Shown one piece after another: positions 1 through 64,000 of a stretch of 64,000 nucleotides of DNA. A model generated the notes under the pieces. That model was not told the DNA's origin and ran no database searches. It saw only the letters and a list, made by a program, of their open reading frames with translations. Both the position numbers and the translations under genes were made by a program. Source of the stretch: a virus; IMG/VR virus record IMGVR_UViG_3300021364_000001, positions 123,194 to 187,193 of that record. One strand, given 5' to 3'. Position 1 is the first letter of the stretch; each line of letters begins with the position of its first letter.

Positions 1-137
1 GCACTGGTGACACAAGTCTGGGTGTATGTTACACCACCCAGAATGCTAGTCAGTTCTGCAATCAATTCTCTGGTGCGGTCTTCGGCAGTGCCACCCCGCC
101 AATAGTTCTCCATGTAGTTGTCTGACATGTGTGCCAT
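1..137 (-). CDS. Hypothetical protein, 5' part only (runs off window start)
   Basis: Manual translation MAHMSDNYMENYWRGGTAEDRTRELIAELTSILGGVTYTQTCVTS; its ATG overlaps the gp55 stop (ATGA). Not in ORF track. Confidence 0.65.
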   Translation of the reverse strand, partial: MAHMSDNYMENYWRGGTAEDRTRELIAELTSILGGVTYTQTCVTS

Positions 138-628: not shown

Positions 629-651
629 AGTGGTCCTTCACGGATAGCATA

Positions 652-680
652 ATGTTAACTTATGGTGACAAAAAAGTCAA
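652..680 (-). promoter_or_regulatory. Sigma70-type promoter for gp55
   Basis: Minus strand TTGACT-N17-TAACAT, about 25 nt upstream of the gp55 start. Confidence 0.6.
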
Positions 681-696
681 GTGACAAAGTGACGGC

Positions 697-725
697 TTGA
701 CAAGAAGAAGAATTATAATTATAGT
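697..725 (+). promoter_or_regulatory. Near-consensus sigma70-type promoter pointing antisense to the upstream genes
   Basis: TTGACA (697-702), 17-nt spacer, TATAGT (720-725); no credible plus-strand gene follows. Confidence 0.6.
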
Positions 726-764
726 AACACAGTCAGGGTTCAGAGACAGAGTACCTTTAAGTTA

Positions 765-4383: not shown

Positions 4384-4384
4384 C

Positions 4385-47788: not shown

Positions 47789-47795
47789 TATTTAT
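47789..47795 (-). promoter_or_regulatory. Late promoter overlapping upstream stop
   Basis: ATAAATA; its TAA is the giant protein's stop. Confidence 0.7.
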
Positions 47796-50700
47796 TGGAA
47801 GATCTGAGTCGGGTTGAAGTTGGTGATGATAGTAGCACCAGTCTGAACTGTGAGGATCACAGAGTTGGAGTAGACAGGTGTAGCACCAGCAGCAGTGATT
47901 GCCACGCGGAATTCATCACCGTCATCTGCCTGTTCAGCAGCATTAGATGTGTAGACCGCAGTGTTCTGACCAGTAATGTTGTTCCAGTCAGTTTCGCCAT
48001 ACTGCTTACGCTGCCACTGATAGTTCAGAGGTGTAGTTCCAACTTGGTTATCAGAACTGTTCACAAACTGACCGACAACAGTGAACTGAGCAGTCTGACC
48101 CTGGTTCACAGTCACGTTCACAGGTTGTGTCACGATGTTGATGTAACCAGGTGTGATGACAATCGGGTTGCCCTGAGGGTCAGTACCTTCGCCAGCGTAG
48201 GTATCAAAACCTTGGTTGACAGCAGGTCCAGTCGGGGGCACGAAGTCATCATCAACAGTAGTCTCAACTGTGACAACTGGTTGTGCATAACCAATACCAG
48301 GAGTCTTCACGTCGATTCTCAGGAGACCCATCAGGGCGCGAATACGACCGTCGAAACCAGTAGAGGAAACCACGTCCACGTTCGGGCGCGAGGTATAACC
48401 ATCGCCAGGTGAGGTGATGATTGCTTTTGTGATCTCACCAGACTTGATGCTGGCAAGAGCAGAAGCACCACGACCCTTGACGGTTCCTGTGTACTCAAAG
48501 GTGATCAGAGAGTTCGAGGATTCAATCAGAGCGACTTCACGTTCGTCTGCCTCACCTTCGATTTGCAGAATATCACCTGCTTCGATCGGAGGTACGACAG
48601 TTGCTGCGATCACGTCAGCGTCAGAACCGATGTAGGAGAAGGCAACAAATGTAGATCCTGCACGAGGAATCTCAGCGAAGATGATTCTAGAACCAACCAG
48701 TTCGTAACCAACACCAGGTTCCTGAATCACACCATTGAGCGAGACGATGATGTTGTTCTCAGGCAGGATAGTGTTGGACGACACACCTTCTGTCAGAGTC
48801 AGGGAGTAGAAACCACCCTGATACTTCAAGTTGAAGGACGAACGCAGAGAGTCAAACTCGAAACTGATGTCATCGAGTTGTCTCAGTTTACCCACGTAGT
48901 AACCAATGAACTCAGAACCAATAGTGGGAGGTTCAGTGAAGGAGATCGAGTCAGAGAACGCTGTGTAGGCGTAGTTTGCACCAGGAGGTTGCAGCACACC
49001 GTTGACGAACACGAGCATGTGTCCAGCAGGATCTGGGAAGTATGCTTCGCCGTTGCTGACAGTAAGTTTGAAGGATGTCTCGGTGCCATCGAAACCACGG
49101 AAGTAACGATCGCAACGACCCAGCAGACCCTTCGCCTGCGTGACACCAGCAGACCAACCATAGTCAGACTTGATAGTCAGGTTAGAGGGGAAGTCTCCAT
49201 TGACATCTTCCAACCAGATGCGACCAGTGTCACCACTGATTGCCTTACCTGCGACCTTACCATAAGAGGTGTAGTTGGTAACCTGAACGCCAATGATGTC
49301 ACACTGAATAATAGGGAAGTTGTTGAGGTTCTCAAACTTACCAAGACCACCAGTCAGGAGTTCATTAGGATCTGTGGTTGTAGTACCATCAGCAGCAGCA
49401 CCATAGGGAGTCAGGTTAGCGATCCAGATCTTGTGGATGCTGTTGTCAGGATCGTAGATGTAATCGGTAACAACGGCGGTCCAACCAGGGATCTTAGGAG
49501 TAGAACCTGCGAGCAGATAAACCAGATCTCCCTTCTTGAAGTCGCCCTCAAAACCTTGGTCTCTCAGGACATTACCAACATCACACTCGATAACTTTCTC
49601 AGCATGTACGAACTGGTTGAGTTCGATTTGCTGGAATCCCTGAGCGGTGATGTAGGCGATATCGAGGATTCTGTCAGTGATAGAACCGTAGATGATGTCA
49701 CCATCGATGAAGTCATCTTGCAGTGTCTCAATGTCGATCGTAATACGACCACCCAGGTTGCTAGTCAAAGAACCAGCAGAGTTTTCATAAGAAACGATGT
49801 CTGCCTCAGCACTATTTCCCTTGTTGAAGATAATTTCGCCGTTAGAAAATGCGCCACGATCAATGTTGACTAGCATACGATCTTCGTTAGTGCCAGTCAC
49901 GACTGCTGTCTGAGCACTATCTACACCTTCCAGGATGTCAGCAGCAGTAAAGGAACCTGTGACATTCTCAACGTAGATCCAACCCTCATCCTCATTATCG
50001 CCCGTGAGGACAGAGGTTTGAAGGACTGTACCGAAGTTTGTACCAGCACCTTGGACCTGAACTCTTTCACCCACGGTGAAGCGACCAGTTGCAGTGTTGA
50101 TGTAGATCTTCTGGTAGAGTTTGACGATCTCTGCTTCGTTGTTTCTAGTTCTAACAATCTCAGAAGAGGCGTTAGAAGTAGCACCCACAACCACGTCTGC
50201 GAGACCAAATGTACCGCTGATGGGGTTGTCAATGTCAGGTTGACCGTAAGTTTTGGCAGTACGAGTAATGCCTGTTCGTACGGGAAGACTCAGTTGCTGT
50301 GTGCCTGTCAGAGAAGTGTCAAGAGCGAAGTCACGGAAGCGAGCATCATGACGGATCTCCTTAGTGATCTCAAACTGTGTTGGCGTAGCATTGAGAACGT
50401 AGACATAATCTACATTAGCAAATGCAGGTTCAACGTCGCTAGATGCAATCGCGTACGTGAGAACATCACCACGAGAGTAGAAGTTAGGACGCTGAATAAT
50501 GACTCTGTTCTCTCTTCTCTCGAATGCCGTTTCGATATTCGGAGTATTGATGATCAGGTCAGGATCAGTGTTCCAGTCAGTACCTTCGTCATAGAGATTC
50601 TGTTGGTTTGTAACGTGAGTATTGTTAGTCCACTGAACAGTGTTCTGAGTGGGAGGTGTGCCTCTGCTAATCGCATAATATGCGAGGTTCAGAGAACTAT

Positions 50701-53700
50701 CAATCTTGAATTGTGTAGATTCCTTCTCATATTCATAACGATTTTCGATCGCATTTGTACCTTCGTGCGTGGGATCAAGATAAATGTCATAACCATACCA
50801 CTCACCACCAACACTACGATCGTTGTAATCATCAAGAACACGCTTGCAGTATTCACTGATTCTTGTTACAAACCACAGAAGATGCTGCTTAGTAACATCA
50901 GGGAACGCGATGAAGTTACCCTCACCATCAAACCACGTATTGACGATTCTCAGGATACCATTGTTACCGCCAGTGTTCATGTCGATGAGCAACCCATTGA
51001 GTAGGGTGTCAGCGAAGGACTGTTCGGCAAGAGTTGCTGGATATGCAGTTTGCACCTCAGCGAACGACTTAGCAGAAACAGCGTGCTTGTTGAAGAGAAT
51101 TCTTCTTGCAGCAGACTTGTCAGAGTTGCTGCCACCACCAAGACTGCTGGTCATCAGATCGAACAGAGTCTCAACAGCACTGGTCACGTTCTCGCAAGTG
51201 TAGAACTGATATTCGCTGTTGCCGTTGTAACCTGCGTCACGAGTAATTGTAGTCAGGTAACTAGGAGCAGGAGAGTTGGATGCAGCAGTTGTGATGGTCT
51301 GAATGATAACATCAAACAAGTTCTCGATAGTTGCTGCTTGTGATGCACATGCTTGGTTCCAGTCGCTGCCAGAGTCATAGGTGATAGAAGTATCACGCAG
51401 AACCATCTCAGGCGAATACTTGACAGGCCAGATGTTGGGCAGTGTCTTGGAGATTGTGCCATCAGTAATGCTAGCGGGCGTGGTAATTGTGTCAGTCACA
51501 ATCGACATCAAAGATGTCATGGCAGCCGCTACGTCGGCACAAGGAGTTACAGTGTCAGTATCAGCAGTTACGACATACCCACCCTGGTTATAGGGGAAGA
51601 AGTCGAGATCAGCAAAATACTTCTGAGTGTAACCATGACCAGCAGTGATGGTGATCGGTTGATCTCTCATCACAGTGATGGCAAGGTCTCTTGCCTTCTC
51701 GAAGATCCAGATAGACTCAGCACTTTGAGAAGTAATATGATCGAGACTGCCATTGGTGACATAGAACTCAGCAGCACGGAACATCTTGTTGTTACCACCA
51801 AAGCGGAGGTTCCAGACCATAGCGTGCAGCACATCAGTTACGTCATGGACACAGTTGATGTTGCCGCCAGGAATAGTCAGACCTGGGAATTGTGCCAGAC
51901 CCTGTGCGACTGCTTCCTCAGCAATCAGTCTGATGTTTCTCTCAATGATGTGTGAAGCATCAATGTATCTGTCGTCAGCACCGTTCTGCTCATAAGTCTC
52001 TACATCAACAGCATCGATCGAAGATGTGCCAACTCCACCAGGAGAGACAGTACCACCAGCACCACCTTCTGCCTGATAAATGTAGAGATTGTCACGTCCG
52101 AAACCATTACGCATGGTCAGGATGCAAATCTCAGCAGCAATCTTATACACGTCGATAGACGCTTCAACTTCTGACTCAATGTGCGAGATGCTGGAATCCT
52201 CAGGGTTCAGATAAAGCAGGGCAGCATCATAAACGGCAGAGTTGCCACCATATCTCAGGTCATGAATGATTGCATCGATAACACCCATCACGTCATCGAT
52301 GCAGTTTTGAGCGCCACCAGGAACAACGAAGTCGAGATACTTCGACAAGTCGTTCATTGTGTAAACTGCCTCGCGAGCAATTACGTGCTTGTTAGCGTCG
52401 AGCAGGTCAGCAGCGTCGATATTTCTGTTAGAAGAAGGATCAGCGTAGTTGTAACCCTTAGTGTCAATAGTGATAGTATCATCTCTATATGCTGTGCGGG
52501 TTGTCCACTGCGCCACATAGTAATCATCATGAGTCTCAGCAGGAACACCCAGTTCAGAAGCAGTGGTGCCAAAGGTCAGCAGAGTGTTGTTGACAGCGTG
52601 GAGAACCAGTTTCTTGACGTAGTTGAAAGCGTCAAGCATTGCACCGATTTCATTTTCAACGTAGATGATATTATTATTATTGTCAAGATAGAAATCAATA
52701 ACATACTGAGTGGCAGAGTTGCCACCAGTAATCAAATCGGTAATAACAGCAGGCAAGATGTACTGCTTGATATCACGCTCACACTTAGAATCGCCACCAG
52801 GAATTGTAAGGAAGTCATAGAAAGTAGTTTCCTGAGTAATCTCATTCAGGATATTTGCCGAATAGTAATCATTCAGATAACCAGTAGTCTCTTCTGCGAT
52901 GTAATCGCGGTTTTTCCAAATGAGGTCACCAGCGTCACGGAATCTGTTGCCCGTGGGACCAAGGATGTCAGCGATAGTGTTAGAAAGAAGAACAATCTCA
53001 TCTTGAATTGCCTGAGAAGCAGGTGCTGTGAAGTTGTTCGGAATACGAAGGATGTCAGTGTACTTAGTGCCATTGTAGGTTTCCAAGTCGCTGCTAGTAG
53101 TGGTAATGACATAGTTGATTACCTCTGCTACTTCGGTCCAAGTGAAGATCGATTGCAGCAGTTCGTTACCAACGTATGCCAGGTCACCAGTCTTAGTCAG
53201 ATAACCTCTACCAGCGATAACGCTGTTGTAGTTACCACCATAACGAATGTCTTCGATGATTGCTTTGAGGATATACTCCTTAGTATCACGCAGACAGAAG
53301 TTTGTACCTTGCTGGACACCAACACCATCAGCGGTGTCACCAGGCATCACAAAGTCAGGATACTTCTCCTTCATCAGACCAACAGCGGTCTCAGCGATCC
53401 AGTCGAGGTTCAGTTCGATTGTGTCAGCACACTTACGATACTCATCACGGGAAAGGTTGATATCCTCAACAATGATGGTCTTCTCGTCATAGTCGATCTT
53501 CTTGGCAGTAGCAGAAGAGTTAGTCTGACCAGTATAGGTAGCAAGTCTCTCCTGAGTGCTCATGATGATCGGCAGTTCAAAACTGAGACCGAAACTTACA
53601 TCATTGAGTCCTGTGCCACTAGGATATGTGAATCCAGGTGTGAAGGTGGCGCTGTAATCAGAGACACCCTTCTTGAAGATGATATTGTCAAGGTGTCCAA

Positions 53701-56700
53701 CAAAATTGTTGCTACCTGCTTCGTCAGCACCAATCTTGAATGCACGTTCCAGATAAGCATTGTTGTCAGTGTAATCACCACCAACTTGTGTACCATCAAC
53801 CCACACCTTAGTGATGTTGGTAGTTCTGGTAACAGCAACGTGATGCCAATCAGTGGTAGTCATGTTGTGAGTACCAGTGATTTGATCACTGCCGTTATAC
53901 CACCAGTTGATAGTTCCACCGTTGAGATAGAGAACAGGAGAACCATTCTCAGTAGGACCACTGGTGCGTGTATCCCACAGATATTGCAGACCAGTCAATG
54001 TGGTGGGTTTAACCCACATTTCGATAGTGAAGTCATCAGTGCCAAACTTGTTAACGTCACTCAGAGGATGAGAGAGGTAACCGCCAGCGTCGATTCTCAG
54101 AGACTTAGTGCCAGACTTGTATTCCAGGATTGTCTGAACAGCGTTAGTGGCAGTAAGTTTGGTGTTAGTGATGTACTCTCTGTTTTGCAGAGTACCAGTG
54201 ATAGAGTTGGTGAACAACCATTTCAGACCAGCGTTAGCACCTTTCAGAGAGAGGCTAGCGCCCGAAGTCGCACCAGTGATGGTGTCACCAGGCAGGAAGA
54301 ATCCATTACCCAGGGGTTCCTTGTAGGATATCTTAAAGACACGCAGGTTCTCATTCTCTTGGAAGGAACCATCGCTGATAACTGACAGAGCATTGATGTT
54401 GTTCAGGTTACCTGCATTGATTGCAGTAGTGGCAATCGAGGTCAGAGTATCCAGAGCAGCCTGTACGTCAGCACAAAGGGTATCGTCGTCAAAGTTAGTA
54501 CCCTGAGAGTAGTTGGGATCGTATGTATGACCTTCGCTAGAAGAGGTCAAATACGGACCAGGGTATGTAGAGGGGTCATAGACCAGTGTCAGATCTCTGT
54601 CGTACAGGAGGTTGTTGATGGCAAGTTTTGCCATGTCTCTTGCCTTGTTGAAGGCAGTGATGGATTCAGCAGTCTCACCAACCAGACCGTTGCTGATGGG
54701 AGTGCCATTAGCATCAAAGTAGAATCTAGTAAACTTGACAACACCATAGTTGCCATCACCCCTGATATCCTGAACCAAAGCATCAACAAAGTAACCGATG
54801 TCACGACGACACTTAGTCTCATTGGTGCTATATGTGCTAGGTTCAGAGAGTTCAATCAGATCAGACAAGGAACCTGCAAGCAGAACCTCAGACACGTTGT
54901 CGAACAAGGTTTGCAGGGCAGACTGAACGTCGGAGCAGTTGTTAGCACCGAAGTTATCAGTATTGCTACCAGCAGTACCATAAGGGTTCCCAGGTGAAGG
55001 ATCAGCAGTGATACCAGTGCCACTAGAACCACCAGTGCTACGCTCATCATACAGATTATAAGTTTGACCACCTGCTGTGTCTGTACCAGTCAGCATGTTG
55101 GTGAGAGCATTTTTCATGTAACCGAGTGCTTGCTCGAAAGCATACTCAGTTGCCTCTGCTTCATTATTAACATACAGGAAGGTAGTACCATCCTCACTGA
55201 AATACATCTGCAAGAACTTGCGGGTGTATACAGTGCCACCTTGGAACATGTCCATGGACAGAGCATCAACAAAGTGACCGATGTCACGAATGCACTTGGT
55301 CGTAGAAGGAATAGGAAGAGTAGGATACTCAACAACCATATCGTCATAAGACTTGGCTTTGATGTATTCCTTATTACGTTGAATCAGGCGGTATGCATCA
55401 GCGTATCTGCTGAACTGGTCAGTCTGGTTGTCACCAGGATAATAGAACCCAGGATGCTGAACAGCGATTTCAGCATTAGCAAAGTCAATGATCTCTTGCT
55501 TGTTAGCAGCAATTCTGTTGGCAGCGTCATACCATCTGTTCAACGCATCAGTTACAGGATTACCATAAGTAACGGTAATAGAACGGAGAGTATCTCCTGC
55601 TGCCATCGCACCACCTGTCAGGTTCTCATACTGAATTTCAGTAGAACGAACCTCTTCAAAGTCTAGGAAGTCAGCGTTGATACGATCAGTGCTATCGAGA
55701 ATCTCAGTAGGTGTAATCGTTGTCTTAGAAATGTCATCCAGAATGACGTTGGTGTTAGTTAGGGAGATCAGACGTTCAAAGATCATACCGAAGAAGGTAG
55801 AACCTTTGTTGATCGTTAGAGTATCCACAACGTCACCAACTCTGGGTTGACCGTTAATGGTCTCAGTCAGAGCACCAGGAATAATAGTATCAGGATCGCC
55901 AACAGCTGTGGTGTAGATCTGAATGGTTTCATTGACTTGGATGGGTTGTCCAGACTCAGCATCCAGAGTATTAGGATCGAGATTGAATGCCTGCTCAGTC
56001 TTGGGCAGATAATAGAGAACAGGAGGAGATGCCTCAAAGTCAACTCTTACAACCTCGCCTCTTGCGCCAGAGGTTACACCAAAGAATGTATCACCTTCAA
56101 CAAAGGTGTCCCAAGCACCAGAGATAGTGGCAGGACGCTCCAAGTTGATGCTAGTGATCGGATCTCTGTAAGGAGCGATACTTGTGACACGAGCAGCAAT
56201 GTTAGATGCAGCAGAGTAGAAGATGTCGTTCAGGAACAGGTTGTACTGACCCGTTTCATACTCAGCAGTACCAGAAGTCTTGGACAGAACCAGAGTGTCA
56301 GAGATGTTGCCATCGAGGTCAAGATTAGTTTCTTCGACGATAGCAGTGTCTCCATCCATGTTAGTGACAGTCTCACCAAACTCAAAGATGGTCTTGTAGT
56401 TGACACTATCAACGTTCAGGATGTTAGCGCCATAACCAGCGTTGAAGAATGTGAGGTCTTCACCACGCTCGAAGTATCCATCAGACATGTCTGTCACTTG
56501 GATGCTGTTCTCGGTCAGGTCGATAGATGTAACAGTTGCTCTCGCACCTGAGGTCTGACCAGTAATTCTGTCACCGATGAGAACTGTACCGAATGTGCCA
56601 CCAATGTTTTGGAGGAACAGTTTGGTGAAGGACTTGTCAATAGAACCAACCAGAGCACTGAAACCAGTTCTACCAACGTCAACACGCTCGTTCAGAGCAA

Positions 56701-59700
56701 AACCAGTAGAAGAACCAGAGATGTCTACAACGTCGATGCTAGTAGCGCCAGTTGCAACAACCTTAGCAGTTGTCTCAGTTGTGAAACCAGTAATAGTGTC
56801 ACCGATAGAGGGGAAGATACCAGCAATAGTGTTGAGGTTCAGTCTGGTGATCGGCATAATATCGAAGTCGATATTCCTATACACGATCTTAGAATCGGGT
56901 CTAGGTGCCTCAGAGAAGACGATGCTATTACCAACAACCTGATAAGAAGTGCCAGGAGACTGGATAACGCCATTGATAGTGACGAGCAGTTGGTTATCCT
57001 TAACGATAACCTGCTCACCTTCTACTCTAAGAGGGAACGCTTTGGTAACACCATCAAACTGAGAAGAAATATCATCAATCTTCTTAACGATAGAAGTCAG
57101 AATTTCCTCAGAGTTGGTCAGTCTCTTCTTACGGAAGAGAACTTCGGAGTTATTAAAGGTCGAGTAGATCGGTTGAGCAGCGCCAAACGAGGTGATCTCG
57201 TTAACGTTAGTGTACTCATTGATGTTTACCTGCTTGGTGAAGTCAGCAGCAACCTTACGACCAGATACGTCCTTACCACCAGTCAGTGACAGTTCACCGA
57301 ACATGTTGAAACCAACAGGGTGGTTGTTTTCAAGGATCTGCTGCTTCCAACGGTTGATAGGAATCTGAGACTTGATAACGTAGGAGAAGTTCTGGTAGAA
57401 GTAGGAGTCTTGGATCTTCTGAATGATCTCAGAAGGTTTACCTACATCATCAGTAAATCTACCAGCAGTTCTAGTGATAGCGTCAATGTTCAACACGCCC
57501 TTAGCAATGTTGATGTTGTCGATGATACCAGATGCACGAGAGATAACACCCTGCACCTTACCACCAACAACAAAGTCGCCATTGGGATTGGTAATTTTCA
57601 GGATCTTAGGTTGAATCTGCCAACCATCGTTTTCGGAAACAACACCGAAAGCAGTTGCACCTTCAAAGTCTTCACCTTGGAATACTTGCTCACCTTCCAG
57701 GAAGCGAGAAGTCTCAACCACTGCTTCTGCTTGACCACCGAATACCTCAGTGAGCAGCACCTGACGACCATCACCCTGAGTCAAGAAGGTAATGAAGTTA
57801 CCAGACTCAGCGTCAACTGGGGTCAGTGCAAAACGCAGTTGGTCAGATTCAAGACCATTTGCCTCTCCTGCAATGGCGTAGTAGGTCTGAGTAGAAGACA
57901 GACTGGTCAAACCAACGCTACTCGGTTTCGGCAGAACACCAACAGTAGAACCAATATCCTCAGCACGGAACTGAACCTCAGCACCAGTGGTAATACCATG
58001 AGGGAAGTTAAATTGCAAGTAGTTCAAGTCGAGGTTCACAACATAGGTGAACTCAGATTTCAGAGTAACAACAGGTTGTGAAGAGTAACCAGAACCAGGA
58101 TTCTTGATCAGAATCTCAGACAGTCTGTTGTTCTTAACCACTGCTTCTGCTTCGGCACCAGTACCGCCACCACCTTGGATGATAACAGCAGGTGCAGAGG
58201 TGTAACCAGCACCAGGGTTGGTGATTGTAATCTGAGACAGAATAGAAGTATTGAAGAGTTGCAGGTTGATCGGGAATGCAATCTCAGGACGTAGGGTATA
58301 GTCATGGGAGTAACCATAACCAAACTCATTGTTTTTCAGAGTCTTGATCTTACCGACTTGCTTACCAGTAAGGAACACAGCAGCGCCAGTACCCTCAGCA
58401 GGGATCACAACCTCAATCTCACCACCAGAACCCGACAGTGTGGGTCCGAGAATGCCTGGGATAGCGTCAATGTCAATAGAACCGAAAGTATACCCTTTAC
58501 CAGGATCAGTCAGAGCAACTTGACTGATGGCACCAGATCCAGTCTCTGGATCGTTTTCAACGGTGATATTACAAAGACCACCTTCACCATCACCAAGAAT
58601 CGGAACCTGAGTGTATACGCCAGGTGCATACTCAGTACCAGAGGCAGTAATACGAAGTTTCTCAATCTTACGATTAGAAGAGATGTCATCAATGACTGGG
58701 AGTTTCTTATAGAATCCACCAGGAGAAATCAACTTAATAGAGTTGATAGGACCGATTGCCTTGGTAGAAGTCGTAGAATAGATCGTATTCGGGACATCTT
58801 GGTCATCCAGACCGATTTCGGCGTTTGTGAACTCAGGTTCGTACAGAAGCGGGAATCTGAACTCAGTATCACTAATAACTTCGGAAATAGTGAATCTGCC
58901 GTCAAATGGGGTCTTGATAACGTCGATGAACGAATTAGCGCCCACAGGAGACGTTACACCAGTTCTAGACGGATCGAAGTAGTAAGTAATGTTAGTAACC
59001 TCACCACCGATCGTAAACTTGACCACAGGGGTCTCAGTAGCGGAAGAAAGTCCAGGAGTACCTTCACGCTCGATTACGTTGAAAGAATATTCCAGTTTGT
59101 ACTGGTTGTCTTGTGCAAACGACAGATAGTAACCAAAGTTGGAAGCATCACTCATATCGAAGATATAAGAGTGATTTCTGACCAGAAGCAGTGTGGGGTG
59201 CTTAGACGAGATCTTCACACGAGAAATAGCACCTTGTGCGAATGCAGGGTCAGCAGTTGCAGTTGCTCTCAGTTTGTAGATGAAATCTCTCGAAGAGAAG
59301 ACTTCTTTAACGAAGAACGAACCATTGAACTCGGCAGTAGTGAATCCTTCAACAAAGAGGATGTCATTGGTGTTGAAGTTGTGAGGAGACAGTGCAGAAC
59401 AGTAAATCAGGTCAGTTCTGTTGTCAGCAGTTCTAATGATGTCCTTATTCAAGTTTACAGTCAATCTAATCTTCTTAACGGAAGAAAGACCATTGATTTC
59501 GGCAATCTTGTCGTTAGAGTCCTCTTTGATACCAGCAGTGATACTGTTACCCAAGGAAACAACGTCACCGATGATGAAGTCAGATCCAGGGTAAGTATTG
59601 AGGATAGTTACACGATAGTCGGCAACACTGAACGGACGATAGCGAGCATAGTCAGAAAGTGGATCATATGTACTAGTGTATTGCCATGTAACGGAATTAT

Positions 59701-62700
59701 CTGTGGCAGTGCCTGCGGTATGCGTCGGAGCGACAGTACCAGACACACCAGCAACTGTACATGTATACTTGTTTCTGCCGAAGTATACGGTGTCGTCTAC
59801 ATCGTAAGAACGAGTTTCTGCCCAAGGATCAGCATCAGTAGGTGTCGGCCAAGGATAGTCTGCTAGATCGACTTCAATAGCAGGAGCAGCACTAATATAC
59901 TGCCAAACAACAGCACCATCAGTTACTGTACCGATTTCATGGGTCGGAGCAGTAGATCCAGAGGTTGCATTGTTAGTTGCATAGTAAAGTTTGCCATCAG
60001 ACCAAACTTGGTCATTTACGACATACGCTTTACCAGATTCCCAAACATCTTGGGGACGAGCAACATCAAATGAGATTTCATCGATTGTGTTCTCTTCATT
60101 TGCATCATTTTGATACAGATCGTCATTATTGAACGTACCGTAGATCTTACCAACTTTATAGGTAGTTCCAAGACCAGGATCGTCAATAGTTCCAGCAGGA
60201 GCCTCTACGATGGTGCCATATGCTTGCACAACACCATTACTGTTGACCTGTTGCAGAATGCTACCTTTCTTAAACTTAATTGCTTGATTAAAGACGAATT
60301 CTTTAACAGCGTCGATCTTCTGATAACCAGCGTCTCTAATGTAGTATTTGGGAAGAACCAGAGGTTCAATTTTCAGTTTTCTGCCCAGAGGAGTTGGAAT
60401 CGTCGAAGTCTTGGACTCATAGGTATATCTGTTCTGGACAAAGGTATAAGTGCCAGGAGCAAGAGTAGATACAACATCAGAGTAGTCAAGAATCTGCAAA
60501 CCAGAAGAACCAACGTTCCAAGTTGTAATTACAGGGTTTGAGATAGTATTAACAGTATATGCAATACCATCAGTCTCGAAATCCAAAGATTCGGTATTTC
60601 TAGTTCCATCAGGTGTGAAGTTGCCTCTCTTAGAGTGAAGACGATCAAACTTGATCAGTTCCAGAGCATCATTGGTTGTCGTGATTCTATAACGCTCAGT
60701 GGGAACCACCAGAGAAGATCCACTATATACTGCTCTGGGATCAACGACAATATCGTCAATATGACCCAAGAAGGTGTTACCAATCAAAGGACCACCCTGA
60801 GCAGCACCAATGGTCAGATCATTCATTACGATGTCATTTACAGTCGTCTGAGTAGCGACTTGAACGCCATCAAAGTAACAAGAGTAGACATAAGAACCAA
60901 GAGAAGGTTCTTCCTTCACCAGAGCGATATGGTGCCAATCTTGGTCCTGCATAGCAGTCCAATAAGTAGAACCAACAGACCAAACAGTAGTTCCACCGCC
61001 ACCAACGGGATTTGTTTGCAGACCGATCTTACCGAAGTTGCCACTACCAGAATTACCGTCAATAATGTACTGAACATCAGCACCGAGGTCATCGACGACT
61101 GTAATCATGTTAATGGTGGGATTATTAGTGGCATGGGTGTTATCCATGCGAACCCAGAACACTGTGGTCCACTCTTCAAGCAGATTGATGTCTTGCCAGA
61201 CCAAACTGTTGGTATCTTGGAATTCAAGAGATCTAGTACCGAACTTCGCTTGTGTATCACTAGAAGCGATGTTAGCAGCGTCGAAAATGGTAATTGTGCT
61301 TACCAGGTTCTGCTTAGTGTCATCAAAGGTCGGATTTGCTTGATCTTCAAATCTATGAACGATTGTTTGGACAGGATTCTGTCTGTTGGTCGCCAGAATA
61401 ACATCACCAGAGTTATCCACTGCATGAGAGTGAACTTTGAAACCAACATCGTTAGCAGACTTGGAAACATTGGTAATCTTGGAAGATTCGATGGTTCCGT
61501 CGTACTTGAATCCGAAAATAGTCGCTTGTAGGTTATTATCTTCGAGTTGGGTCTCTGTGGCGACGTTAACATTGCCAAATATGTCCAGAGTGATGCCAGC
61601 GTGCTTGATCGACTCAAATGTGGTCGAAGGAGCGATGATCTTAGCAAAATCCCACTGAGGAGTTGCAACAGTCAGTCTGATTTGATCCAAAGCGATCTTG
61701 AAGAAGGCAACACCATAATTCTTGGTGCCATTCCACATATCGCAGACAAAGAACAGATCATTGTACTCATCAAGGATAAAACGAGGTCTCTGTACATCGC
61801 CACCACTTACAGCGAGACGTTTTACATAAGACATCTCGATATTTGCACCGTCATACTCCATAACACCAAACATGAGGTCGGAGTTGTCCTGATCAATGCC
61901 ACAGAAAGCAACCTGGTTGTCTCCGAGGTAGTACAGTTGATGCATCTGCTCACCTTCGGTGTCAGAAGCAAACTTACGCTTCTCTACAACATCACCTTGG
62001 TTATTGAGTTGCATGACCCAGATATCGTCTGGATCAGGGGAGTTAGTGTCGGTCCAACCGCAGATATAGACTCTTTGCTCGTCATCCAGGTAGATATCAC
62101 CAGCATAGTCACGTCTGGTAGAACCAGACACACCAGCAATCTCTTTCTGGAATCTTACAAGACCTTCTGGATTGTTAGCATTGTCAAGACCAGATTCATA
62201 CTTAGCGACAAGGATATCAGGGTTGTAACCAGCAGTTCCTTGGGACTCGGTTTCACCAATCAAGTAAATCAGGTGATTTTCTTCGCTGGTCTCATCAAGA
62301 TACATCTTCTTCCAACGTGCAGTCTTGATAGAAGCACTAGGAAGCAGTGTTCTGTCCCAAACAACGCTACCAAGGTCATTGAACTTAGCAATGAAGGCAG
62401 AACTATCACCATTGGTCTGAGTCAGTTCACCACAGACATACAGACTACGATCAGAAGCAACAATGGAGTCAAATACTTCAAAGGTAGCACCAGTAGACTC
62501 GGAAAACTCAGTAGACCAGTAATATGTCTTCTTGAATCTCTGAGGATGGGAAACGCGGATTTCTGGGGGATTCTCAGTATCATAATTGAAACCAGAGTTG
62601 ATGATATCAACCTTATCAATCTTACCAGTCGTGGTATCCAGTTTGATATCCAGTTCAACGTCTTGACCCTGAGAACTGATGATCTCATAGGTCGGAGGAA

Positions 62701-64000
62701 TTGCCTGATTGTAACCAATACCACTTTGAGTGATAGTAATCGAATCAATGCCTGTAACAACAGACATGTAGAAACGCTTATTAGTATTCTCAGTAATAAC
62801 TCTGGAATTGACGATCAGTTCGTCTTGTGCAACTAGTTCGTGCTCTGTGGTGGTTGTGATTCTACCGTAGGGGATGTCATTGATGATTTCTTTTCTATAC
62901 TGCGAAATACCTGCACCTTGCACAGATTCAACCTGTGCGCTAGCGCCGAAACCATCTGTTCCTGTATTGTCAAAGAATAGTGTATCGTTAACCTGATAGG
63001 AAACACCAGGATTCTCGATAACGAAACCATCGATCTGAGCATTCTCGAATTTCGTCGTCGTCTCAACTTCGATATCGACTCGGGATTCTGTCGAAACTCT
63101 TGGGAAGTAATCATAGATTTGAAGTGCTGCTTCCTCCGTCATCGCCTGATTTGTGGCGATTTCCTCAGGAGAAATGATACCATCATTATCTATATCTTCA
63201 ATCTCGAAGATAATAGTGTCACCTTCACGCTCAGTGACCAGCTGGTCGGACTGTTGGTTAGGTTGACGATCAATATCGATATCAACTTCATCATAGGGAT
63301 CTCTGAAACGAGACACATCAGAGGGGATGTTCTCCTGGGTTGCTTGCTGACTCAGGTTCCAAGTATCAACCACAGAGTTGAACTGAGGTCCAATAATGTA
63401 AGGGAACACAGGAAGACCTGCTTCCGATGCATCAATAGTGATGAAGTAGGCATAAATGCCATCGGGATATTCAGGTGTCTTACAGAAACGACCGTTGTAA
63501 GGATCAAGATCGCCTTCTTGGAAAGTGTATTCGTAGTCATCAACGAACTGACCAGCAGGGTATTCGGTCAGAGAAGGTCCGTCAATACGAGCAGGGTTGG
63601 GGTTAGTATCGATATCATATACAACGTTTGCTTTCAGTTTGTAAGAAGAACGCATTCTTCTGATACCACCGCCAGCATCGGTAGGATCGATGTAACCATA
63701 AGGTCCGTAGATGGGACTTCCATCAAATGCCCAACCAATAATTGGAGAGTGGGTAATAGAAGCACCAGTCTCAGTTCCTTCTTCTTTGAACTGATTGGTC
63801 TCTGGGTCGAGAATTACGTTATCACCAACCACATAGCGGAGTTCTTTGGGATCGGATACGTGAGCATACTCACCACCATACTGGTTATTGAAACCAGTGA
63901 AAACATAACCACGAGCAATATCATACTTGGAACTCAGATCATATTCCAGGTTCTTGTTCCACTGGAACACATCTGCTTCAAATGTAGCAAGTTGACCAAC
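47792..64000 (-). CDS. Giant (>5400 aa) multidomain baseplate protein, gp7-like; 5' end beyond window
   Basis: Frame is open to 64000 (VGQLATFEADVFQWNK...). Contains a YHYH-like segment, a propeller-like region, two LamG-like domains, CBM-like modules, HPVGFNMFGE, VxxNGVIQ repeats, helical Cys repeats and a C-terminal Ig domain; lies upstream of gp8. Confidence 0.8.
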   Translation of the reverse strand, partial: VGQLATFEADVFQWNKNLEYDLSSKYDIARGYVFTGFNNQYGGEYAHVSDPKELRYVVGDNVILDPETNQFKEEGTETGASITHSPIIGWAFDGSPIYGPYGYIDPTDAGGGIRRMRSSYKLKANVVYDIDTNPNPARIDGPSLTEYPAGQFVDDYEYTFQEGDLDPYNGRFCKTPEYPDGIYAYFITIDASEAGLPVFPYIIGPQFNSVVDTWNLSQQATQENIPSDVSRFRDPYDEVDIDIDRQPNQQSDQLVTEREGDTIIFEIEDIDNDGIISPEEIATNQAMTEEAALQIYDYFPRVSTESRVDIEVETTTKFENAQIDGFVIENPGVSYQVNDTLFFDNTGTDGFGASAQVESVQGAGISQYRKEIINDIPYGRITTTTEHELVAQDELIVNSRVITENTNKRFYMSVVTGIDSITITQSGIGYNQAIPPTYEIISSQGQDVELDIKLDTTTGKIDKVDIINSGFNYDTENPPEIRVSHPQRFKKTYYWSTEFSESTGATFEVFDSIVASDRSLYVCGELTQTNGDSSAFIAKFNDLGSVVWDRTLLPSASIKTARWKKMYLDETSEENHLIYLIGETESQGTAGYNPDILVAKYESGLDNANNPEGLVRFQKEIAGVSGSTRRDYAGDIYLDDEQRVYICGWTDTNSPDPDDIWVMQLNNQGDVVEKRKFASDTEGEQMHQLYYLGDNQVAFCGIDQDNSDLMFGVMEYDGANIEMSYVKRLAVSGGDVQRPRFILDEYNDLFFVCDMWNGTKNYGVAFFKIALDQIRLTVATPQWDFAKIIAPSTTFESIKHAGITLDIFGNVNVATETQLEDNNLQATIFGFKYDGTIESSKITNVSKSANDVGFKVHSHAVDNSGDVILATNRQNPVQTIVHRFEDQANPTFDDTKQNLVSTITIFDAANIASSDTQAKFGTRSLEFQDTNSLVWQDINLLEEWTTVFWVRMDNTHATNNPTINMITVVDDLGADVQYIIDGNSGSGNFGKIGLQTNPVGGGGTTVWSVGSTYWTAMQDQDWHHIALVKEEPSLGSYVYSCYFDGVQVATQTTVNDIVMNDLTIGAAQGGPLIGNTFLGHIDDIVVDPRAVYSGSSLVVPTERYRITTTNDALELIKFDRLHSKRGNFTPDGTRNTESLDFETDGIAYTVNTISNPVITTWNVGSSGLQILDYSDVVSTLAPGTYTFVQNRYTYESKTSTIPTPLGRKLKIEPLVLPKYYIRDAGYQKIDAVKEFVFNQAIKFKKGSILQQVNSNGVVQAYGTIVEAPAGTIDDPGLGTTYKVGKIYGTFNNDDLYQNDANEENTIDEISFDVARPQDVWESGKAYVVNDQVWSDGKLYYATNNATSGSTAPTHEIGTVTDGAVVWQYISAAPAIEVDLADYPWPTPTDADPWAETRSYDVDDTVYFGRNKYTCTVAGVSGTVAPTHTAGTATDNSVTWQYTSTYDPLSDYARYRPFSVADYRVTILNTYPGSDFIIGDVVSLGNSITAGIKEDSNDKIAEINGLSSVKKIRLTVNLNKDIIRTADNRTDLIYCSALSPHNFNTNDILFVEGFTTAEFNGSFFVKEVFSSRDFIYKLRATATADPAFAQGAISRVKISSKHPTLLLVRNHSYIFDMSDASNFGYYLSFAQDNQYKLEYSFNVIEREGTPGLSSATETPVVKFTIGGEVTNITYYFDPSRTGVTSPVGANSFIDVIKTPFDGRFTISEVISDTEFRFPLLYEPEFTNAEIGLDDQDVPNTIYSTTSTKAIGPINSIKLISPGGFYKKLPVIDDISSNRKIEKLRITASGTEYAPGVYTQVPILGDGEGGLCNITVENDPETGSGAISQVALTDPGKGYTFGSIDIDAIPGILGPTLSGSGGEIEVVIPAEGTGAAVFLTGKQVGKIKTLKNNEFGYGYSHDYTLRPEIAFPINLQLFNTSILSQITITNPGAGYTSAPAVIIQGGGGTGAEAEAVVKNNRLSEILIKNPGSGYSSQPVVTLKSEFTYVVNLDLNYLQFNFPHGITTGAEVQFRAEDIGSTVGVLPKPSSVGLTSLSSTQTYYAIAGEANGLESDQLRFALTPVDAESGNFITFLTQGDGRQVLLTEVFGGQAEAVVETSRFLEGEQVFQGEDFEGATAFGVVSENDGWQIQPKILKITNPNGDFVVGGKVQGVISRASGIIDNINIAKGVLNIDAITRTAGRFTDDVGKPSEIIQKIQDSYFYQNFSYVIKSQIPINRWKQQILENNHPVGFNMFGELSLTGGKDVSGRKVAADFTKQVNINEYTNVNEITSFGAAQPIYSTFNNSEVLFRKKRLTNSEEILTSIVKKIDDISSQFDGVTKAFPLRVEGEQVIVKDNQLLVTINGVIQSPGTSYQVVGNSIVFSEAPRPDSKIVYRNIDFDIMPITRLNLNTIAGIFPSIGDTITGFTTETTAKVVATGATSIDVVDISGSSTGFALNERVDVGRTGFSALVGSIDKSFTKLFLQNIGGTFGTVLIGDRITGQTSGARATVTSIDLTENSIQVTDMSDGYFERGEDLTFFNAGYGANILNVDSVNYKTIFEFGETVTNMDGDTAIVEETNLDLDGNISDTLVLSKTSGTAEYETGQYNLFLNDIFYSAASNIAARVTSIAPYRDPITSINLERPATISGAWDTFVEGDTFFGVTSGARGEVVRVDFEASPPVLYYLPKTEQAFNLDPNTLDAESGQPIQVNETIQIYTTAVGDPDTIIPGALTETINGQPRVGDVVDTLTINKGSTFFGMIFERLISLTNTNVILDDISKTTITPTEILDSTDRINADFLDFEEVRSTEIQYENLTGGAMAAGDTLRSITVTYGNPVTDALNRWYDAANRIAANKQEIIDFANAEIAVQHPGFYYPGDNQTDQFSRYADAYRLIQRNKEYIKAKSYDDMVVEYPTLPIPSTTKCIRDIGHFVDALSMDMFQGGTVYTRKFLQMYFSEDGTTFLYVNNEAEATEYAFEQALGYMKNALTNMLTGTDTAGGQTYNLYDERSTGGSSGTGITADPSPGNPYGTAGSNTDNFGANNCSDVQSALQTLFDNVSEVLLAGSLSDLIELSEPSTYSTNETKCRRDIGYFVDALVQDIRGDGNYGVVKFTRFYFDANGTPISNGLVGETAESITAFNKARDMAKLAINNLLYDRDLTLVYDPSTYPGPYLTSSSEGHTYDPNYSQGTNFDDDTLCADVQAALDTLTSIATTAINAGNLNNINALSVISDGSFQENENLRVFKISYKEPLGNGFFLPGDTITGATSGASLSLKGANAGLKWLFTNSITGTLQNREYITNTKLTATNAVQTILEYKSGTKSLRIDAGGYLSHPLSDVNKFGTDDFTIEMWVKPTTLTGLQYLWDTRTSGPTENGSPVLYLNGGTINWWYNGSDQITGTHNMTTTDWHHVAVTRTTNITKVWVDGTQVGGDYTDNNAYLERAFKIGADEAGSNNFVGHLDNIIFKKGVSDYSATFTPGFTYPSGTGLNDVSFGLSFELPIIMSTQERLATYTGQTNSSATAKKIDYDEKTIIVEDINLSRDEYRKCADTIELNLDWIAETAVGLMKEKYPDFVMPGDTADGVGVQQGTNFCLRDTKEYILKAIIEDIRYGGNYNSVIAGRGYLTKTGDLAYVGNELLQSIFTWTEVAEVINYVITTTSSDLETYNGTKYTDILRIPNNFTAPASQAIQDEIVLLSNTIADILGPTGNRFRDAGDLIWKNRDYIAEETTGYLNDYYSANILNEITQETTFYDFLTIPGGDSKCERDIKQYILPAVITDLITGGNSATQYVIDFYLDNNNNIIYVENEIGAMLDAFNYVKKLVLHAVNNTLLTFGTTASELGVPAETHDDYYVAQWTTRTAYRDDTITIDTKGYNYADPSSNRNIDAADLLDANKHVIAREAVYTMNDLSKYLDFVVPGGAQNCIDDVMGVIDAIIHDLRYGGNSAVYDAALLYLNPEDSSISHIESEVEASIDVYKIAAEICILTMRNGFGRDNLYIYQAEGGAGGTVSPGGVGTSSIDAVDVETYEQNGADDRYIDASHIIERNIRLIAEEAVAQGLAQFPGLTIPGGNINCVHDVTDVLHAMVWNLRFGGNNKMFRAAEFYVTNGSLDHITSQSAESIWIFEKARDLAITVMRDQPITITAGHGYTQKYFADLDFFPYNQGGYVVTADTDTVTPCADVAAAMTSLMSIVTDTITTPASITDGTISKTLPNIWPVKYSPEMVLRDTSITYDSGSDWNQACASQAATIENLFDVIIQTITTAASNSPAPSYLTTITRDAGYNGNSEYQFYTCENVTSAVETLFDLMTSSLGGGSNSDKSAARRILFNKHAVSAKSFAEVQTAYPATLAEQSFADTLLNGLLIDMNTGGNNGILRIVNTWFDGEGNFIAFPDVTKQHLLWFVTRISEYCKRVLDDYNDRSVGGEWYGYDIYLDPTHEGTNAIENRYEYEKESTQFKIDSSLNLAYYAISRGTPPTQNTVQWTNNTHVTNQQNLYDEGTDWNTDPDLIINTPNIETAFERRENRVIIQRPNFYSRGDVLTYAIASSDVEPAFANVDYVYVLNATPTQFEITKEIRHDARFRDFALDTSLTGTQQLSLPVRTGITRTAKTYGQPDIDNPISGTFGLADVVVGATSNASSEIVRTRNNEAEIVKLYQKIYINTATGRFTVGERVQVQGAGTNFGTVLQTSVLTGDNEDEGWIYVENVTGSFTAADILEGVDSAQTAVVTGTNEDRMLVNIDRGAFSNGEIIFNKGNSAEADIVSYENSAGSLTSNLGGRITIDIETLQDDFIDGDIIYGSITDRILDIAYITAQGFQQIELNQFVHAEKVIECDVGNVLRDQGFEGDFKKGDLVYLLAGSTPKIPGWTAVVTDYIYDPDNSIHKIWIANLTPYGAAADGTTTTDPNELLTGGLGKFENLNNFPIIQCDIIGVQVTNYTSYGKVAGKAISGDTGRIWLEDVNGDFPSNLTIKSDYGWSAGVTQAKGLLGRCDRYFRGFDGTETSFKLTVSNGEAYFPDPAGHMLVFVNGVLQPPGANYAYTAFSDSISFTEPPTIGSEFIGYYVGKLRQLDDISFEFDSLRSSFNLKYQGGFYSLTLTEGVSSNTILPENNIIVSLNGVIQEPGVGYELVGSRIIFAEIPRAGSTFVAFSYIGSDADVIAATVVPPIEAGDILQIEGEADEREVALIESSNSLITFEYTGTVKGRGASALASIKSGEITKAIITSPGDGYTSRPNVDVVSSTGFDGRIRALMGLLRIDVKTPGIGYAQPVVTVETTVDDDFVPPTGPAVNQGFDTYAGEGTDPQGNPIVITPGYINIVTQPVNVTVNQGQTAQFTVVGQFVNSSDNQVGTTPLNYQWQRKQYGETDWNNITGQNTAVYTSNAAEQADDGDEFRVAITAAGATPVYSNSVILTVQTGATIITNFNPTQIFQ
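50900..55560 (-). repeat. Array of helical repeats resembling phycobiliprotein subunits
   Basis: Recurring DA..(I/L)..N...I..EA...P....PG(G/D)...C.(R/D/H)D......A...D(L/I)..GGN and C.(10).FD segments. Confidence 0.7.

What the first reader, a model, noticed from the sequence alone, without database searches (positions are those of the whole stretch)
51190..54960. Second motif C-x10-F-D mirrors the beta-153/155 bilin site, the target of T-type lyases that cyanophages often encode
Seen in sequence: NCSDVQSALQTLFDNV (about 54940), ACASQAATIENLFDVI (Cys 51347-51349) and TCENVTSAVETLFDLM (51194-51196), with variants LCADVQAALDTLTSI (about 54475) and PCADVAAAMTSLMSI (51539-51541). Established, from memory: the last helix of beta-phycocyanin is GDCSALASEIASYFDRA, the same C-x10-F-D spacing, and that Cys is chromophorylated by CpcT/CpeT lyases. 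Many cyanomyoviruses carry cpeT and bilin synthesis genes, and the phage lyase's natural substrate is unclear. Inference: this virion protein is a candidate phage-encoded substrate. The N- and C-terminal halves of the repeats are not strictly alternating, which suggests nested or domain-swapped assembly.
Basis: partly seen in the sequence, partly recalled or inferred. Interest (0 to 1): 0.82.

Follow-up and report, generated by a model that had tools for sequence, protein, structure and literature searches.

The report
Second bilin site in cyanophage baseplate protein
A giant baseplate protein of this marine cyanobacterial virus contains seven nested copies of the fold its host uses to hold light-harvesting pigment. 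The motif flagged here is that fold's second pigment-attachment cysteine, so it can now be tested whether the virus particle carries pigment put on by the virus's own, so far unexplained, CpeT enzyme.

Summary

AlphaFold models match phycobiliprotein beta chains (Z 15-16.7, rmsd about 2 A). The motif helix falls on the last helix, H. A profile alignment puts its Cys on beta-Cys153, the F-D on F164-D165, an invariant Asp on beta-Asp39, and C-x-R-D on Cys82-Arg84-Asp85.

Five of seven domains keep Asp39 plus Cys153, invariant in orthologues. In 29 cellular phycobiliproteins that pair marks exactly the nine chains with the second bilin. The F-D is not conserved (8 of 143 helices); the Cys is.

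The irregular order is nesting: one domain sits in a B-E loop, others in G-H loops, each closed by a later helix H.

The genome has cpeT but no pebS, pcyA or ho1. In 16 reference cyanomyoviruses cpeT and these domains co-occur 13/13 and are both absent in 3. Those 3 form one clade, so this is about one event.

Pigment attachment is not shown, and I could not measure Cys-Cys distances. This scan has noted the same domains in at least 43 other genomes; I found no paper describing them.

The parts
47792..64000 (-). Window part (5,402 codons plus stop) of a 6,759-codon baseplate-module ORF. The first 1,357 codons lie across the record's 127-bp terminal repeat.
   Evidence: PHROG virion structural / baseplate wedge families. 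The S-WAM1 orthologue is annotated baseplate wedge initiator. Downstream genes are gp9-like and baseplate wedge subunits.
55439..55552 (-). Helix A/B pair with a PGD loop (res 2817-2854). It supplies the N-terminal part, with Asp39-equivalent D2825, of domain U2, into whose B-E loop domain U1 is inserted.
   Evidence: HMM states 1-38. D2825 and N2833 are invariant 33/33. AF2 helices 19-48.
54863..55423 (-). Domain U1 (res 2860-3046), a complete phycobiliprotein beta-like domain: D2868, C2903-x-R-D, C3022.
   Evidence: VIA Z 14-16.6, rmsd about 2 A, model 61..241 to beta 32..177. hhalign residue mapping.
54866..54937 (-). Helix H of U1, starting with Cys3022 (C-x10-F-D).
   Evidence: Cys 33/33.
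54401..54850 (-). Domain U2, helices E to H (res 3051-3200): C3064-R-R-D and C3176.
   Evidence: HMM states 31-162. AF2 helices 259-396.
54407..54475 (-). Helix H of U2, starting with Cys3176 (variant motif without F-D).
53684..54064 (-). Laminin-G / concanavalin-like domain between the two groups of phycobiliprotein-like domains.
   Evidence: PF13385, E 3.7e-16.
52958..53500 (-). Domain U3 (res 3501-3681), contiguous. It keeps C3569-L-R-D, but has Lys at the Asp39 position and Pro at the Cys153 position.
   Evidence: VIA Z 15.8-16.7, model 1..181 to beta 10/11..172-184. Columns.
52571..52948 (-). Domain U4, helices B to G (res 3685-3810): D3689 and C3740-E-R-D. Its helix H comes later (Cys4269).
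   Evidence: HMM states 5-115. Closure by the Cys4269 helix is inferred from order and count.
52046..52432 (-). Domain U5, helices B to G (res 3857-3985): D3862 and C3900-I-D-D. Its helix H comes later (Cys4218).
   Evidence: HMM states 4-130. VIA rows spanning model 354..741-745.
51482..51976 (-). Domain U6 (res 4009-4173), complete: D4014, C4050-V-H-D, and helix H starting with Cys4154.
   Evidence: HMM states 4-157. VIA Z 15-15.9, rmsd 2.3 A, model ..673 to beta ..177.
51281..51349 (-). Helix H starting with Cys4218 (C-x10-F-D, F-D 16/16). It closes U5.
51140..51196 (-). Helix H starting with Cys4269 (C-x10-F-D/E). It probably closes U4.
   Evidence: HMM states 97-160 at res 4229-4291.
50816..51127 (-). 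Domain U7 (res 4292-4395), degenerate: Ser in place of Cys82, Ser/Ala in place of Asp39, and only the Asp85 equivalent kept.

Best explanation
The C-x10-(F-D) element is the last helix (H) of phycobiliprotein beta-type globin domains built into the phage's giant gp7-position baseplate protein. Its Cys is the counterpart of beta-Cys153/155 (Cys158/165 in phycoerythrin).

Seven such domains are nested:
- U1 sits in the B-E loop of U2.
- U6 sits in the G-H loop of U5, and U5 in that of U4.
- This nesting is why three H helices follow one another at 51140-51541.

Five domains keep the whole second site (Asp39 plus Cys153 equivalents) and six keep the first (Cys82, Asp85, mostly Arg84).

Most likely these are working bilin sites, filled in the infected cell from host-made bilin. 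The second site would be served by a T-type lyase, probably the phage's own CpeT. The virion would then carry up to about 11 bilins per chain.

Shown: fold, residue equivalence, conservation, nesting (partly), cpeT presence and co-occurrence.
Inferred: bilin attachment and the lyase.

My odds: positional equivalence 0.9, some bilin attached 0.5, phage CpeT as catalyst 0.35.
For: Homology with phycobiliproteins:
- PF00502 summed score 55.4 bits, E 8.8e-15.
- All 32 PDB sequences hit by the U1 profile at E<=1 are phycobiliproteins or an engineered derivative (smURFP).
- An unbiased structure search of 48,161 chains is topped by phycobiliproteins.
- Beta chains give Z 14-16.7, rmsd about 2 A.

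Residue mapping:
- hhalign gives D2868=D39, C2903=C82, R/D=R84/D85, C3022=C153 and F-D=F164-D165.
- Range arithmetic on the U1 and U6 superpositions puts C3022 and C4154 on beta-153/158.

The Asp39 plus Cys153 pair:
- In 29 cellular phycobiliproteins, N35, D39 and C153 co-occur in 9/9 PC/PE beta chains. D39 is absent in the other 20.
- In phage orthologue columns, D39-equivalent and C153-equivalent are both invariant in U1, U2, U4, U5 and U6.
- Neither is present in U3 (Lys and Pro); U7 lacks the Asp39 equivalent, and its helix H was not located.
- 71 of 74 distinct contiguous domain copies in related phages have both.

cpeT:
- It is in this genome. Its best PDB match is PhiCpeT 5hi8, and it overlaps the start of gp5.
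- cpeT and the domains co-occur in 13 of 16 reference phages and are both absent from 3.
- In S-PM2 and Syn1, cpeT lies 1.5 and 0.7 kb upstream of a second giant ORF with these domains.

Host range: matches were found only in cyanophages among 50,697 phage records.
Against: - No chromophore has been observed.
- The tools gave no coordinates, so pocket shape and Cys-Cys distances are untested.
- The model of U3-U7 has pTM 0.48.
- Sequence-level significance for single domains is weak: hhalign E 0.0019, probability 14.5%; best PDB profile hit E 0.006.
- The three phages lacking both features form one clade, so co-occurrence is about one event.
- The Asp39 equivalent persists in two relatives' domains that lost the Cys.
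- Arg84 is replaced by Asp in U5 and by His in U6.
- This genome has no bilin synthesis genes.
- From memory of Gasper et al. 2017 (paper not held): PhiCpeT bound PEB tightly but did not transfer it to host CpeB. That leaves its substrate open, but also allows a non-lyase role.
Confidence: 0.45

Rival explanations
1. The domains are captured phycobiliprotein folds used only as rigid building blocks of the baseplate. They carry no pigment. The conserved Cys are kept for disulfides between nested domains, or with neighbouring chains, once the virion is in oxic seawater.
For: - Cys come in matched numbers: six Cys82-type, plus five helix-H Cys and Cys3524.
- In U3, when Cys3524 is missing (3 of 12 orthologues), a Cys appears 13 residues into helix H instead. 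That looks like a need for a partner Cys.
- Virion proteins often use disulfides (general knowledge).
- No pigment has been reported for cyanophage particles in the papers searched.
Against: - Within one domain the two Cys sit where beta-Cys82 and beta-Cys153 sit (rmsd about 2 A). In phycobiliproteins these hold bilins roughly 3 nm apart (from memory), so an intra-domain bond is not possible.
- A disulfide role does not explain invariant Asp85, Arg84 and Asp39 equivalents, which are bilin ligands in phycobiliproteins.
- It also does not explain the link with cpeT.
Confidence: 0.25
2. Bilins are attached to these domains, but by host lyases or autocatalytically, as in the ApcE domain. Phage CpeT serves host phycoerythrin, or only buffers free PEB, and has nothing to do with the virion protein.
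For: - The host makes bilins and has its own S/U, E/F and T-type lyases (general knowledge).
- This phage has no bilin synthesis genes.
- From memory of Gasper et al. 2017: PhiCpeT holds PEB tightly and assisted the host lyase CpeS.
- ApcE bilin domains are among the structural matches (4xxi_A Z 13.9).
Against: - Co-presence and co-absence of cpeT and the domains in 16 phages.
- cpeT lies beside baseplate genes and beside a second such ORF.
- The conserved site is of the kind T-type lyases serve, per review PMC10452541.
Confidence: 0.2
3. The resemblance to the beta-153 site is chance. The repeats are an unrelated helical repeat family, and the Pfam score is inflated by summing weak hits over internal repeats.
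For: - No single Pfam stretch passes on its own.
- hhalign probability is only 14.5%.
- Helical bundles often give middling structural Z scores (tool note).
Against: - Z 15-16.7 with rmsd about 2 A over 130-150 residues.
- Phycobiliproteins head an unbiased search of 48,161 chains.
- Every PDB hit of the profile is a phycobiliprotein or an engineered derivative.
- Five functional positions align in register.
Confidence: 0.03

Closest known systems
Phycobiliprotein beta subunits (CpcB, CpeB, MpeB, cryptophyte beta chains; Pfam PF00502)
   Same: - Globin-like fold with helices B, E, F, G and H.
- Cys82-x-Arg84-Asp85 on helix E.
- A second Cys at the start of helix H, after a long G-H loop.
- Asp39 and Asn47 on helix B.
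- A partly kept aromatic-Asp (Y-F-D) in helix H.
   Different: - Not free 170-180-residue subunits, but seven domains nested inside one 6,759-residue virion protein.
- Most lack the X/Y helices used for alpha-beta pairing.
- About 15-20% identity.
- Arg84 is replaced in two domains.
- No evidence of ring or rod assembly.
- Pigment binding is untested.
ApcE (core-membrane linker) phycobiliprotein domain
   Same: A phycobiliprotein fold embedded in a large multidomain protein, with a loop insertion. It is a structural match (4xxi_A Z 13.9, 7eyd_19 Z 13.1).
   Different: ApcE has one such domain, a differently placed Cys, attaches its bilin autocatalytically, and sits in the phycobilisome, not in a virus particle.
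T-type bilin lyases and their site (CpcT / CpeT; phage PhiCpeT, PDB 5hi8)
   Same: The genome encodes a CpeT homologue (E 6.6e-8 to 5hi8). The motif Cys is at the position these lyases serve on beta subunits.
   Different: No transfer to this protein has been tested. From memory, the only studied phage CpeT did not transfer PEB to host CpeB.
T4 gp7 baseplate wedge protein
   Same: Position in the baseplate gene module, PHROG baseplate wedge matches, and the annotation of the S-WAM1 orthologue.
   Different: About six times longer than T4 gp7. It also carries YHYH, beta-propeller, laminin-G and phycobiliprotein-like domains. Direct homology to gp7 was not tested here.

Membership tests
Phycobiliprotein (PF00502), beta type | Globin-like phycobiliprotein fold | tested here: met
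   U1: Z 14-16.6, rmsd about 2 A, 129-154 residues aligned. U3 and U6: Z 15-16.7. Phycobiliproteins top an unbiased search of 48,161 chains.
Phycobiliprotein (PF00502), beta type | Score over Pfam's gathering cut-off | tested here: met
   55.4 bits summed against a cut-off of 22.2, E 8.8e-15. No single stretch passes alone.
Phycobiliprotein (PF00502), beta type | First bilin site: Cys82, Arg84, Asp85 on helix E | tested here: met
   Cys and Asp are present and invariant in U1-U6. Arg is present in U1-U4, replaced by Asp in U5 and His in U6. U7 has lost the Cys.
Phycobiliprotein (PF00502), beta type | Second bilin site of PC/PE beta chains: Cys153 at the start of helix H, with Asp39 on helix B | tested here: met
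   hhalign pairs C3022 with C153 and D2868 with D39. The pair is diagnostic in 29 cellular proteins. It is present and invariant in 5 of 7 domains.
Phycobiliprotein (PF00502), beta type | Covalently bound bilin | not testable with these tools
   Needs spectroscopy or mass spectrometry of virions or of the recombinant domain.
Phycobiliprotein (PF00502), beta type | Free subunit of about 160-185 residues that pairs alpha-beta and forms rings | tested here: not met
   The domains are nested in one 6,759-codon ORF. No free-standing copy is found elsewhere in the genome. Short database hits look like fragments of giant proteins.
Substrate of a T-type lyase (CpcT/CpeT) | Cys at the beta-153/155/165 position | tested here: met
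Substrate of a T-type lyase (CpcT/CpeT) | A T-type lyase available in the infected cell | tested here: met
   Phage cpeT: PF06206 41.8 bits, phrog_488 E 2.5e-41, 5hi8 E 6.6e-8.
Substrate of a T-type lyase (CpcT/CpeT) | Lyase-dependent bilin transfer to that Cys | not testable with these tools
   Needs an in-vitro or E. coli co-expression assay.
T4 gp7-like baseplate wedge protein | Homology to gp7 and a place in the baseplate wedge | tested here: inconclusive
   PHROG baseplate wedge families match parts of the ORF. Neighbours are baseplate genes. The S-WAM1 orthologue is annotated so. There was no direct comparison with T4 gp7.

The most novel reading that the evidence does not exclude
The cyanophage baseplate carries covalently bound bilins, put on by phage CpeT, and works as a photoreceptor that gates adsorption or baseplate triggering. 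This would explain three things:
- why some cyanomyoviruses attach to cells only in light;
- why cpeT is so common in these phages;
- why some Prochlorococcus phages carry pebS, pcyA and ho1.

Reported behaviour fits on a very small sample:
- P-HM1 and P-HM2 do not adsorb in the dark (bioRxiv 10.1101/167650), and both carry the domains.
- S-PM2 also carries them. That preprint cites Jia et al. 2010 for light-dependent adsorption; from my memory, not checked here, that study included S-PM2.
- P-SSM2 and P-SSP7 adsorb in the dark and lack the domains.
Probability: 0.2. Interest if true: 0.95.

Novelty: new variant of a known kind. Interest (0 to 1): 0.8.

Why it matters
Phage cpeT has had no known substrate since it was found in S-PM2 in 2005. 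Sullivan et al. 2010 call its role "unresolved" and the role of phage pcyA and pebS "a mystery" (PMC3037559).

A virion protein with intact copies of both bilin sites, including the one T-type lyases serve, gives a concrete and cheap hypothesis. It would be the first pigment-carrying virus particle, and a candidate light sensor for light-dependent adsorption.

Even if the domains are pigment-free, this is a clear case of a host light-harvesting fold captured and nested as a structural module.

Tried and rejected
- **Foldseek on the whole 415-residue model.** No match at E<=0.001. Phycobiliprotein beta chains appeared only with probability 0.95-0.98 and TM 0.57-0.61. The VIA second look was needed.
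- **phmmer of the region against PDB.** One weak hit, ApcD, E 0.42.
- **Early reading that the motif helix is helix B of the next domain.** It lies 42-45 residues before the next C-x-R-D. I rejected this after the superposition and the HMM state ranges showed it is helix H.
- **Covariation of the Asp39 and Cys153 equivalents across 74 contiguous copies.** Almost no variation (71 have both), so it gives no real test.
- **Profile search among 82-328-residue proteins.** Found only metagenomic fragments, one labelled Acinetobacter (probably contamination), and no cellular relatives closer than ordinary phycobiliproteins.
- **Literature searches.** I searched for PF00502 with phage, for phycobiliprotein-like with baseplate, and for cyanophage with globin. 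None gave a description of these domains.
- **Gasper et al. 2017.** The paper is not held, so what I say about it is from memory.
- **Column order of the gene table in Sullivan 2010.** I could not recover it, so I tested the 16 genomes directly.
- **Model coordinates.** They are not returned, so Cys-Cys distances, pocket geometry and the closure of U4 by the Cys4269 helix could not be checked directly.


Full report
**Setting.** The window is the last 64 kb of a 187,193-bp virus record with a 127-bp terminal repeat. Its closest isolate is Synechococcus phage S-WAM1, 90% protein identity over the region. The finding lies in one minus-strand ORF, 47792..64000, that runs off the window. After closing the circle the ORF has 6,759 codons. 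Residue numbers below are those of the 5,402 residues in the window; add 1,357 for the full protein.

The ORF sits in the baseplate module. Downstream are a virion structural protein, a gp9-like connector and baseplate wedge subunits. PHROG families are virion structural and baseplate wedge. The S-WAM1 orthologue is annotated baseplate wedge initiator, that is gp7.

**Observation.** The five motifs and their Cys codons are exactly as reported. Cys is rare in the protein, 26 of 5,402 residues. In the stretch 2900-4400 there are six C-x-[RDH]-D cysteines:

| Domain | Cys82-type Cys |
|---|---|
| U1 | 2903 |
| U2 | 3064 |
| U3 | 3569 |
| U4 | 3740 |
| U5 | 3900 |
| U6 | 4050 |

The same stretch holds the five Cys of this finding: 3022, 3176, 4154, 4218 and 4269.

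Nine PC/PE beta subunits from Synechococcus WH7803, Synechococcus MIT S1220 and a Calothrix have invariant C153, F164 and D165, which is C-x10-F-D.

**What the repeats are.**
- Pfam's Phycobilisome family scores 55.4 bits summed (E 8.8e-15). No single stretch passes alone.
- I built a 33-sequence alignment of the first two domains from IMG/VR relatives of 37-96% identity. AlphaFold2 on it gave pTM 0.83.
- A structural second look gave only phycobiliprotein chains, nearly all beta subunits, at Z 13.6-16.6. For beta chains the rmsd is about 2 A over 129-154 residues. Model 61..241 matches beta residues 32..172/177, that is up to the C-terminus.
- The helix that starts with Cys3022 (model 222-242) is therefore helix H. 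Counting back from the aligned ends puts Cys3022 on Cys153 of phycocyanin and Cys158 of phycoerythrin.
- A profile of U1 orthologues hits only phycobiliproteins, plus one engineered derivative, in the PDB: 32 of 32 hits at E<=1, best 0.006.
- Profile-profile alignment with the nine beta subunits (E 0.0019, 126 columns) pairs D2868 with D39, N2876 with N47, C2903-x-R-D with C82-x-R84-D85, C3022 with C153, and F-D with F164-D165.

**The second site as a unit.** From memory, Asp39 holds the pyrrole nitrogens of the beta-153/155 bilin. In the 29 cellular phycobiliproteins I collected, N35, D39 and C153 occur together in all nine PC/PE beta chains. D39 occurs in none of the 20 alpha or allophycocyanin chains.

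The phage protein follows the same rule in most domains:

| Domains | Asp39 equivalent | Cys153 equivalent |
|---|---|---|
| U1, U2, U4, U5, U6 | invariant Asp | invariant Cys |
| U3 | Lys | Pro |
| U7 | Ser/Ala | helix H not located (Cys82 equivalent also lost) |

In relatives, 71 of 74 distinct contiguous domain copies have both. Two keep the Asp without the Cys, and one has Asn with the Cys. The rule is therefore not absolute, and there is too little variation to test it statistically.

The F-D is a remnant of the Y-F-D of helix H, which in my set is also present in chains without the second bilin. Only 8 of 143 Cys-bearing helices keep it. The conserved feature is C-[SA]-[DN]-V-x-x-A, not C-x10-F-D.

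**Nesting.** HMM state ranges show which domains are complete:

| Domain | HMM states | What is missing |
|---|---|---|
| U1 | 1-162 | nothing |
| U2 | 31-162 | helix B |
| U4 | 5-115 | helix H |
| U5 | 4-130 | helix H |
| U6 | 4-157 | nothing |

- A lone helix-B unit with a PGD loop (states 1-38) precedes U1. So U1 is inserted in the B-E loop of U2.
- A model of residues 3501-4420 (16 sequences, pTM 0.48) was searched without Foldseek against 48,161 chains. The top rows are phycobiliproteins.
- U3 (model 1..181) and U6 (506..680) are whole domains. Several globin rows span 354..741-745 with about 130 residues aligned (Z 6.6-9.4). That is U5 closed by the Cys4218 helix, with U6 lying inside its G-H loop.
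- By order and count, the Cys4269 helix closes U4. This last step is inferred.
- U6 ends at model 673 against beta 177, which again puts Cys4154 on beta-158.

**Link to CpeT.**
- The genome has a 169-residue CpeT homologue at 46.1-46.6 kb: PF06206, phrog_488 E 2.5e-41, best PDB match the P-HM1 PhiCpeT 5hi8 at E 6.6e-8.
- Its end overlaps the start of the gp5 baseplate hub gene, and a 2OG-Fe(II) oxygenase gene precedes it.
- There is no pebS/pcyA or ho1, so bilin would come from the host.
- In the phage collection, CpeT matches 318 records and the domains match 290. All but one are named as Synechococcus, Prochlorococcus or cyanophage, and none belongs to a phage of another host.
- In the 16 cyanomyoviruses of Sullivan et al. 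2010, CpeT and the domains are both present in 13. Both are absent in P-SSM2, S-SM2 and S-SSM7, which also lack any PF00502 signal at E<=1.
- In a terminase tree these three form one clade (support 83/95; S-ShM2 left out because its gene is split). The perfect association therefore counts as roughly one event.
- In S-PM2 and Syn1, cpeT lies 1.5 and 0.7 kb upstream, on the same strand, of a second giant ORF rich in these domains. That ORF is followed by gp12.

**Function.** None of this shows a chromophore. The main rival is a pigment-free scaffold whose Cys form disulfides.
- Against it: the two Cys of one domain sit where beta-82 and beta-153 sit, and those are far apart in phycobiliproteins (from memory).
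- Also against it: the bilin-ligand residues are conserved as well.
- For it: Cys numbers match. In U3 a missing Cys3524 is replaced by a Cys in helix H in three orthologues.
- I could not measure distances, because the tools return no coordinates.

**Literature.**
- A review states that T-type lyases serve the Cys153-equivalent position and that only myoviruses carry cpeT (PMC10452541).
- Sullivan et al. call the role of phage cpeT "unresolved" and that of phage pcyA and pebS "a mystery" (PMC3037559).
- Liu et al. report that P-HM1 and P-HM2 do not adsorb in the dark, while P-SSM2 and P-SSP7 do (10.1101/167650). This matches presence and absence of the domains, but the sample is tiny.
- I found no paper describing these domains.

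**Earlier notes of this scan.** They describe the same domains in at least 43 other genomes, with the same reading.

Noticed in passing
window 47792-64000 and record start (G000:C1:1-4201): The giant ORF is cut by the linearisation of the record. After removing the 127-bp terminal repeat it reads 6,759 codons, starting MFANTINVS.
   Followed up: yes
G000:C1:44636-47148 (outside the window; L001 3-2515): On one strand, in order: a 2OG-Fe(II) oxygenase-like gene, cpeT and gp5 (baseplate hub/lysozyme). The genes overlap; the cpeT end overlaps the gp5 start by 20 nt. The same 2OG oxygenase family lies between cpeT and the second giant phycobiliprotein-domain ORF in S-PM2 and Syn1.
   Followed up: partly
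window 53429-53431 and 52982-52984 (Cys3524, Ser3673): In domain U3, which lacks the helix-H Cys, a Cys next to the Asp39-equivalent position is present in 9 of 12 orthologues. The three without it have a Cys 13 residues into helix H instead, and one has both. This looks compensatory and is unexplained.
   Followed up: partly
L069-L080 (IMG/VR relatives), aligned to window about 51860 and 54560: Some relatives carry a beta-rich insertion of about 100 residues, with its own Cys, in the B-E loop of U6. A similar one sits before helix H of U2. So these loops accept further domain insertions.
   Followed up: no
window 63430-63880, 53684-54064, 47800-48100: Other modules in the same ORF: a YHYH domain (PF14240, E 4e-29), weak beta-propeller repeats, a laminin-G/concanavalin-like domain (E 4e-16), weak DUF4183, and a C-terminal stretch matching head/tail protein PHROGs.
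   Followed up: no
NC_006820.1 165928-177267 (L244): In the S-PM2 RefSeq record, 16 tRNA features are annotated inside the coordinates of the 3,779-codon ORF and share its locus tag. The frame is open throughout, so the tRNA coordinates look misplaced.
   Followed up: no
NC_015281.1 108576-110220 (L261, L262): The terminase large subunit gene of S-ShM2 is split into two overlapping frames (residues 1-360 and 360-552). This is a frameshift or a sequencing error.
   Followed up: no
window 52124-52126 (Cys3959): A further conserved Cys (13 of 14 orthologues) in helix G of U5. It has no counterpart in the other domains.
   Followed up: no
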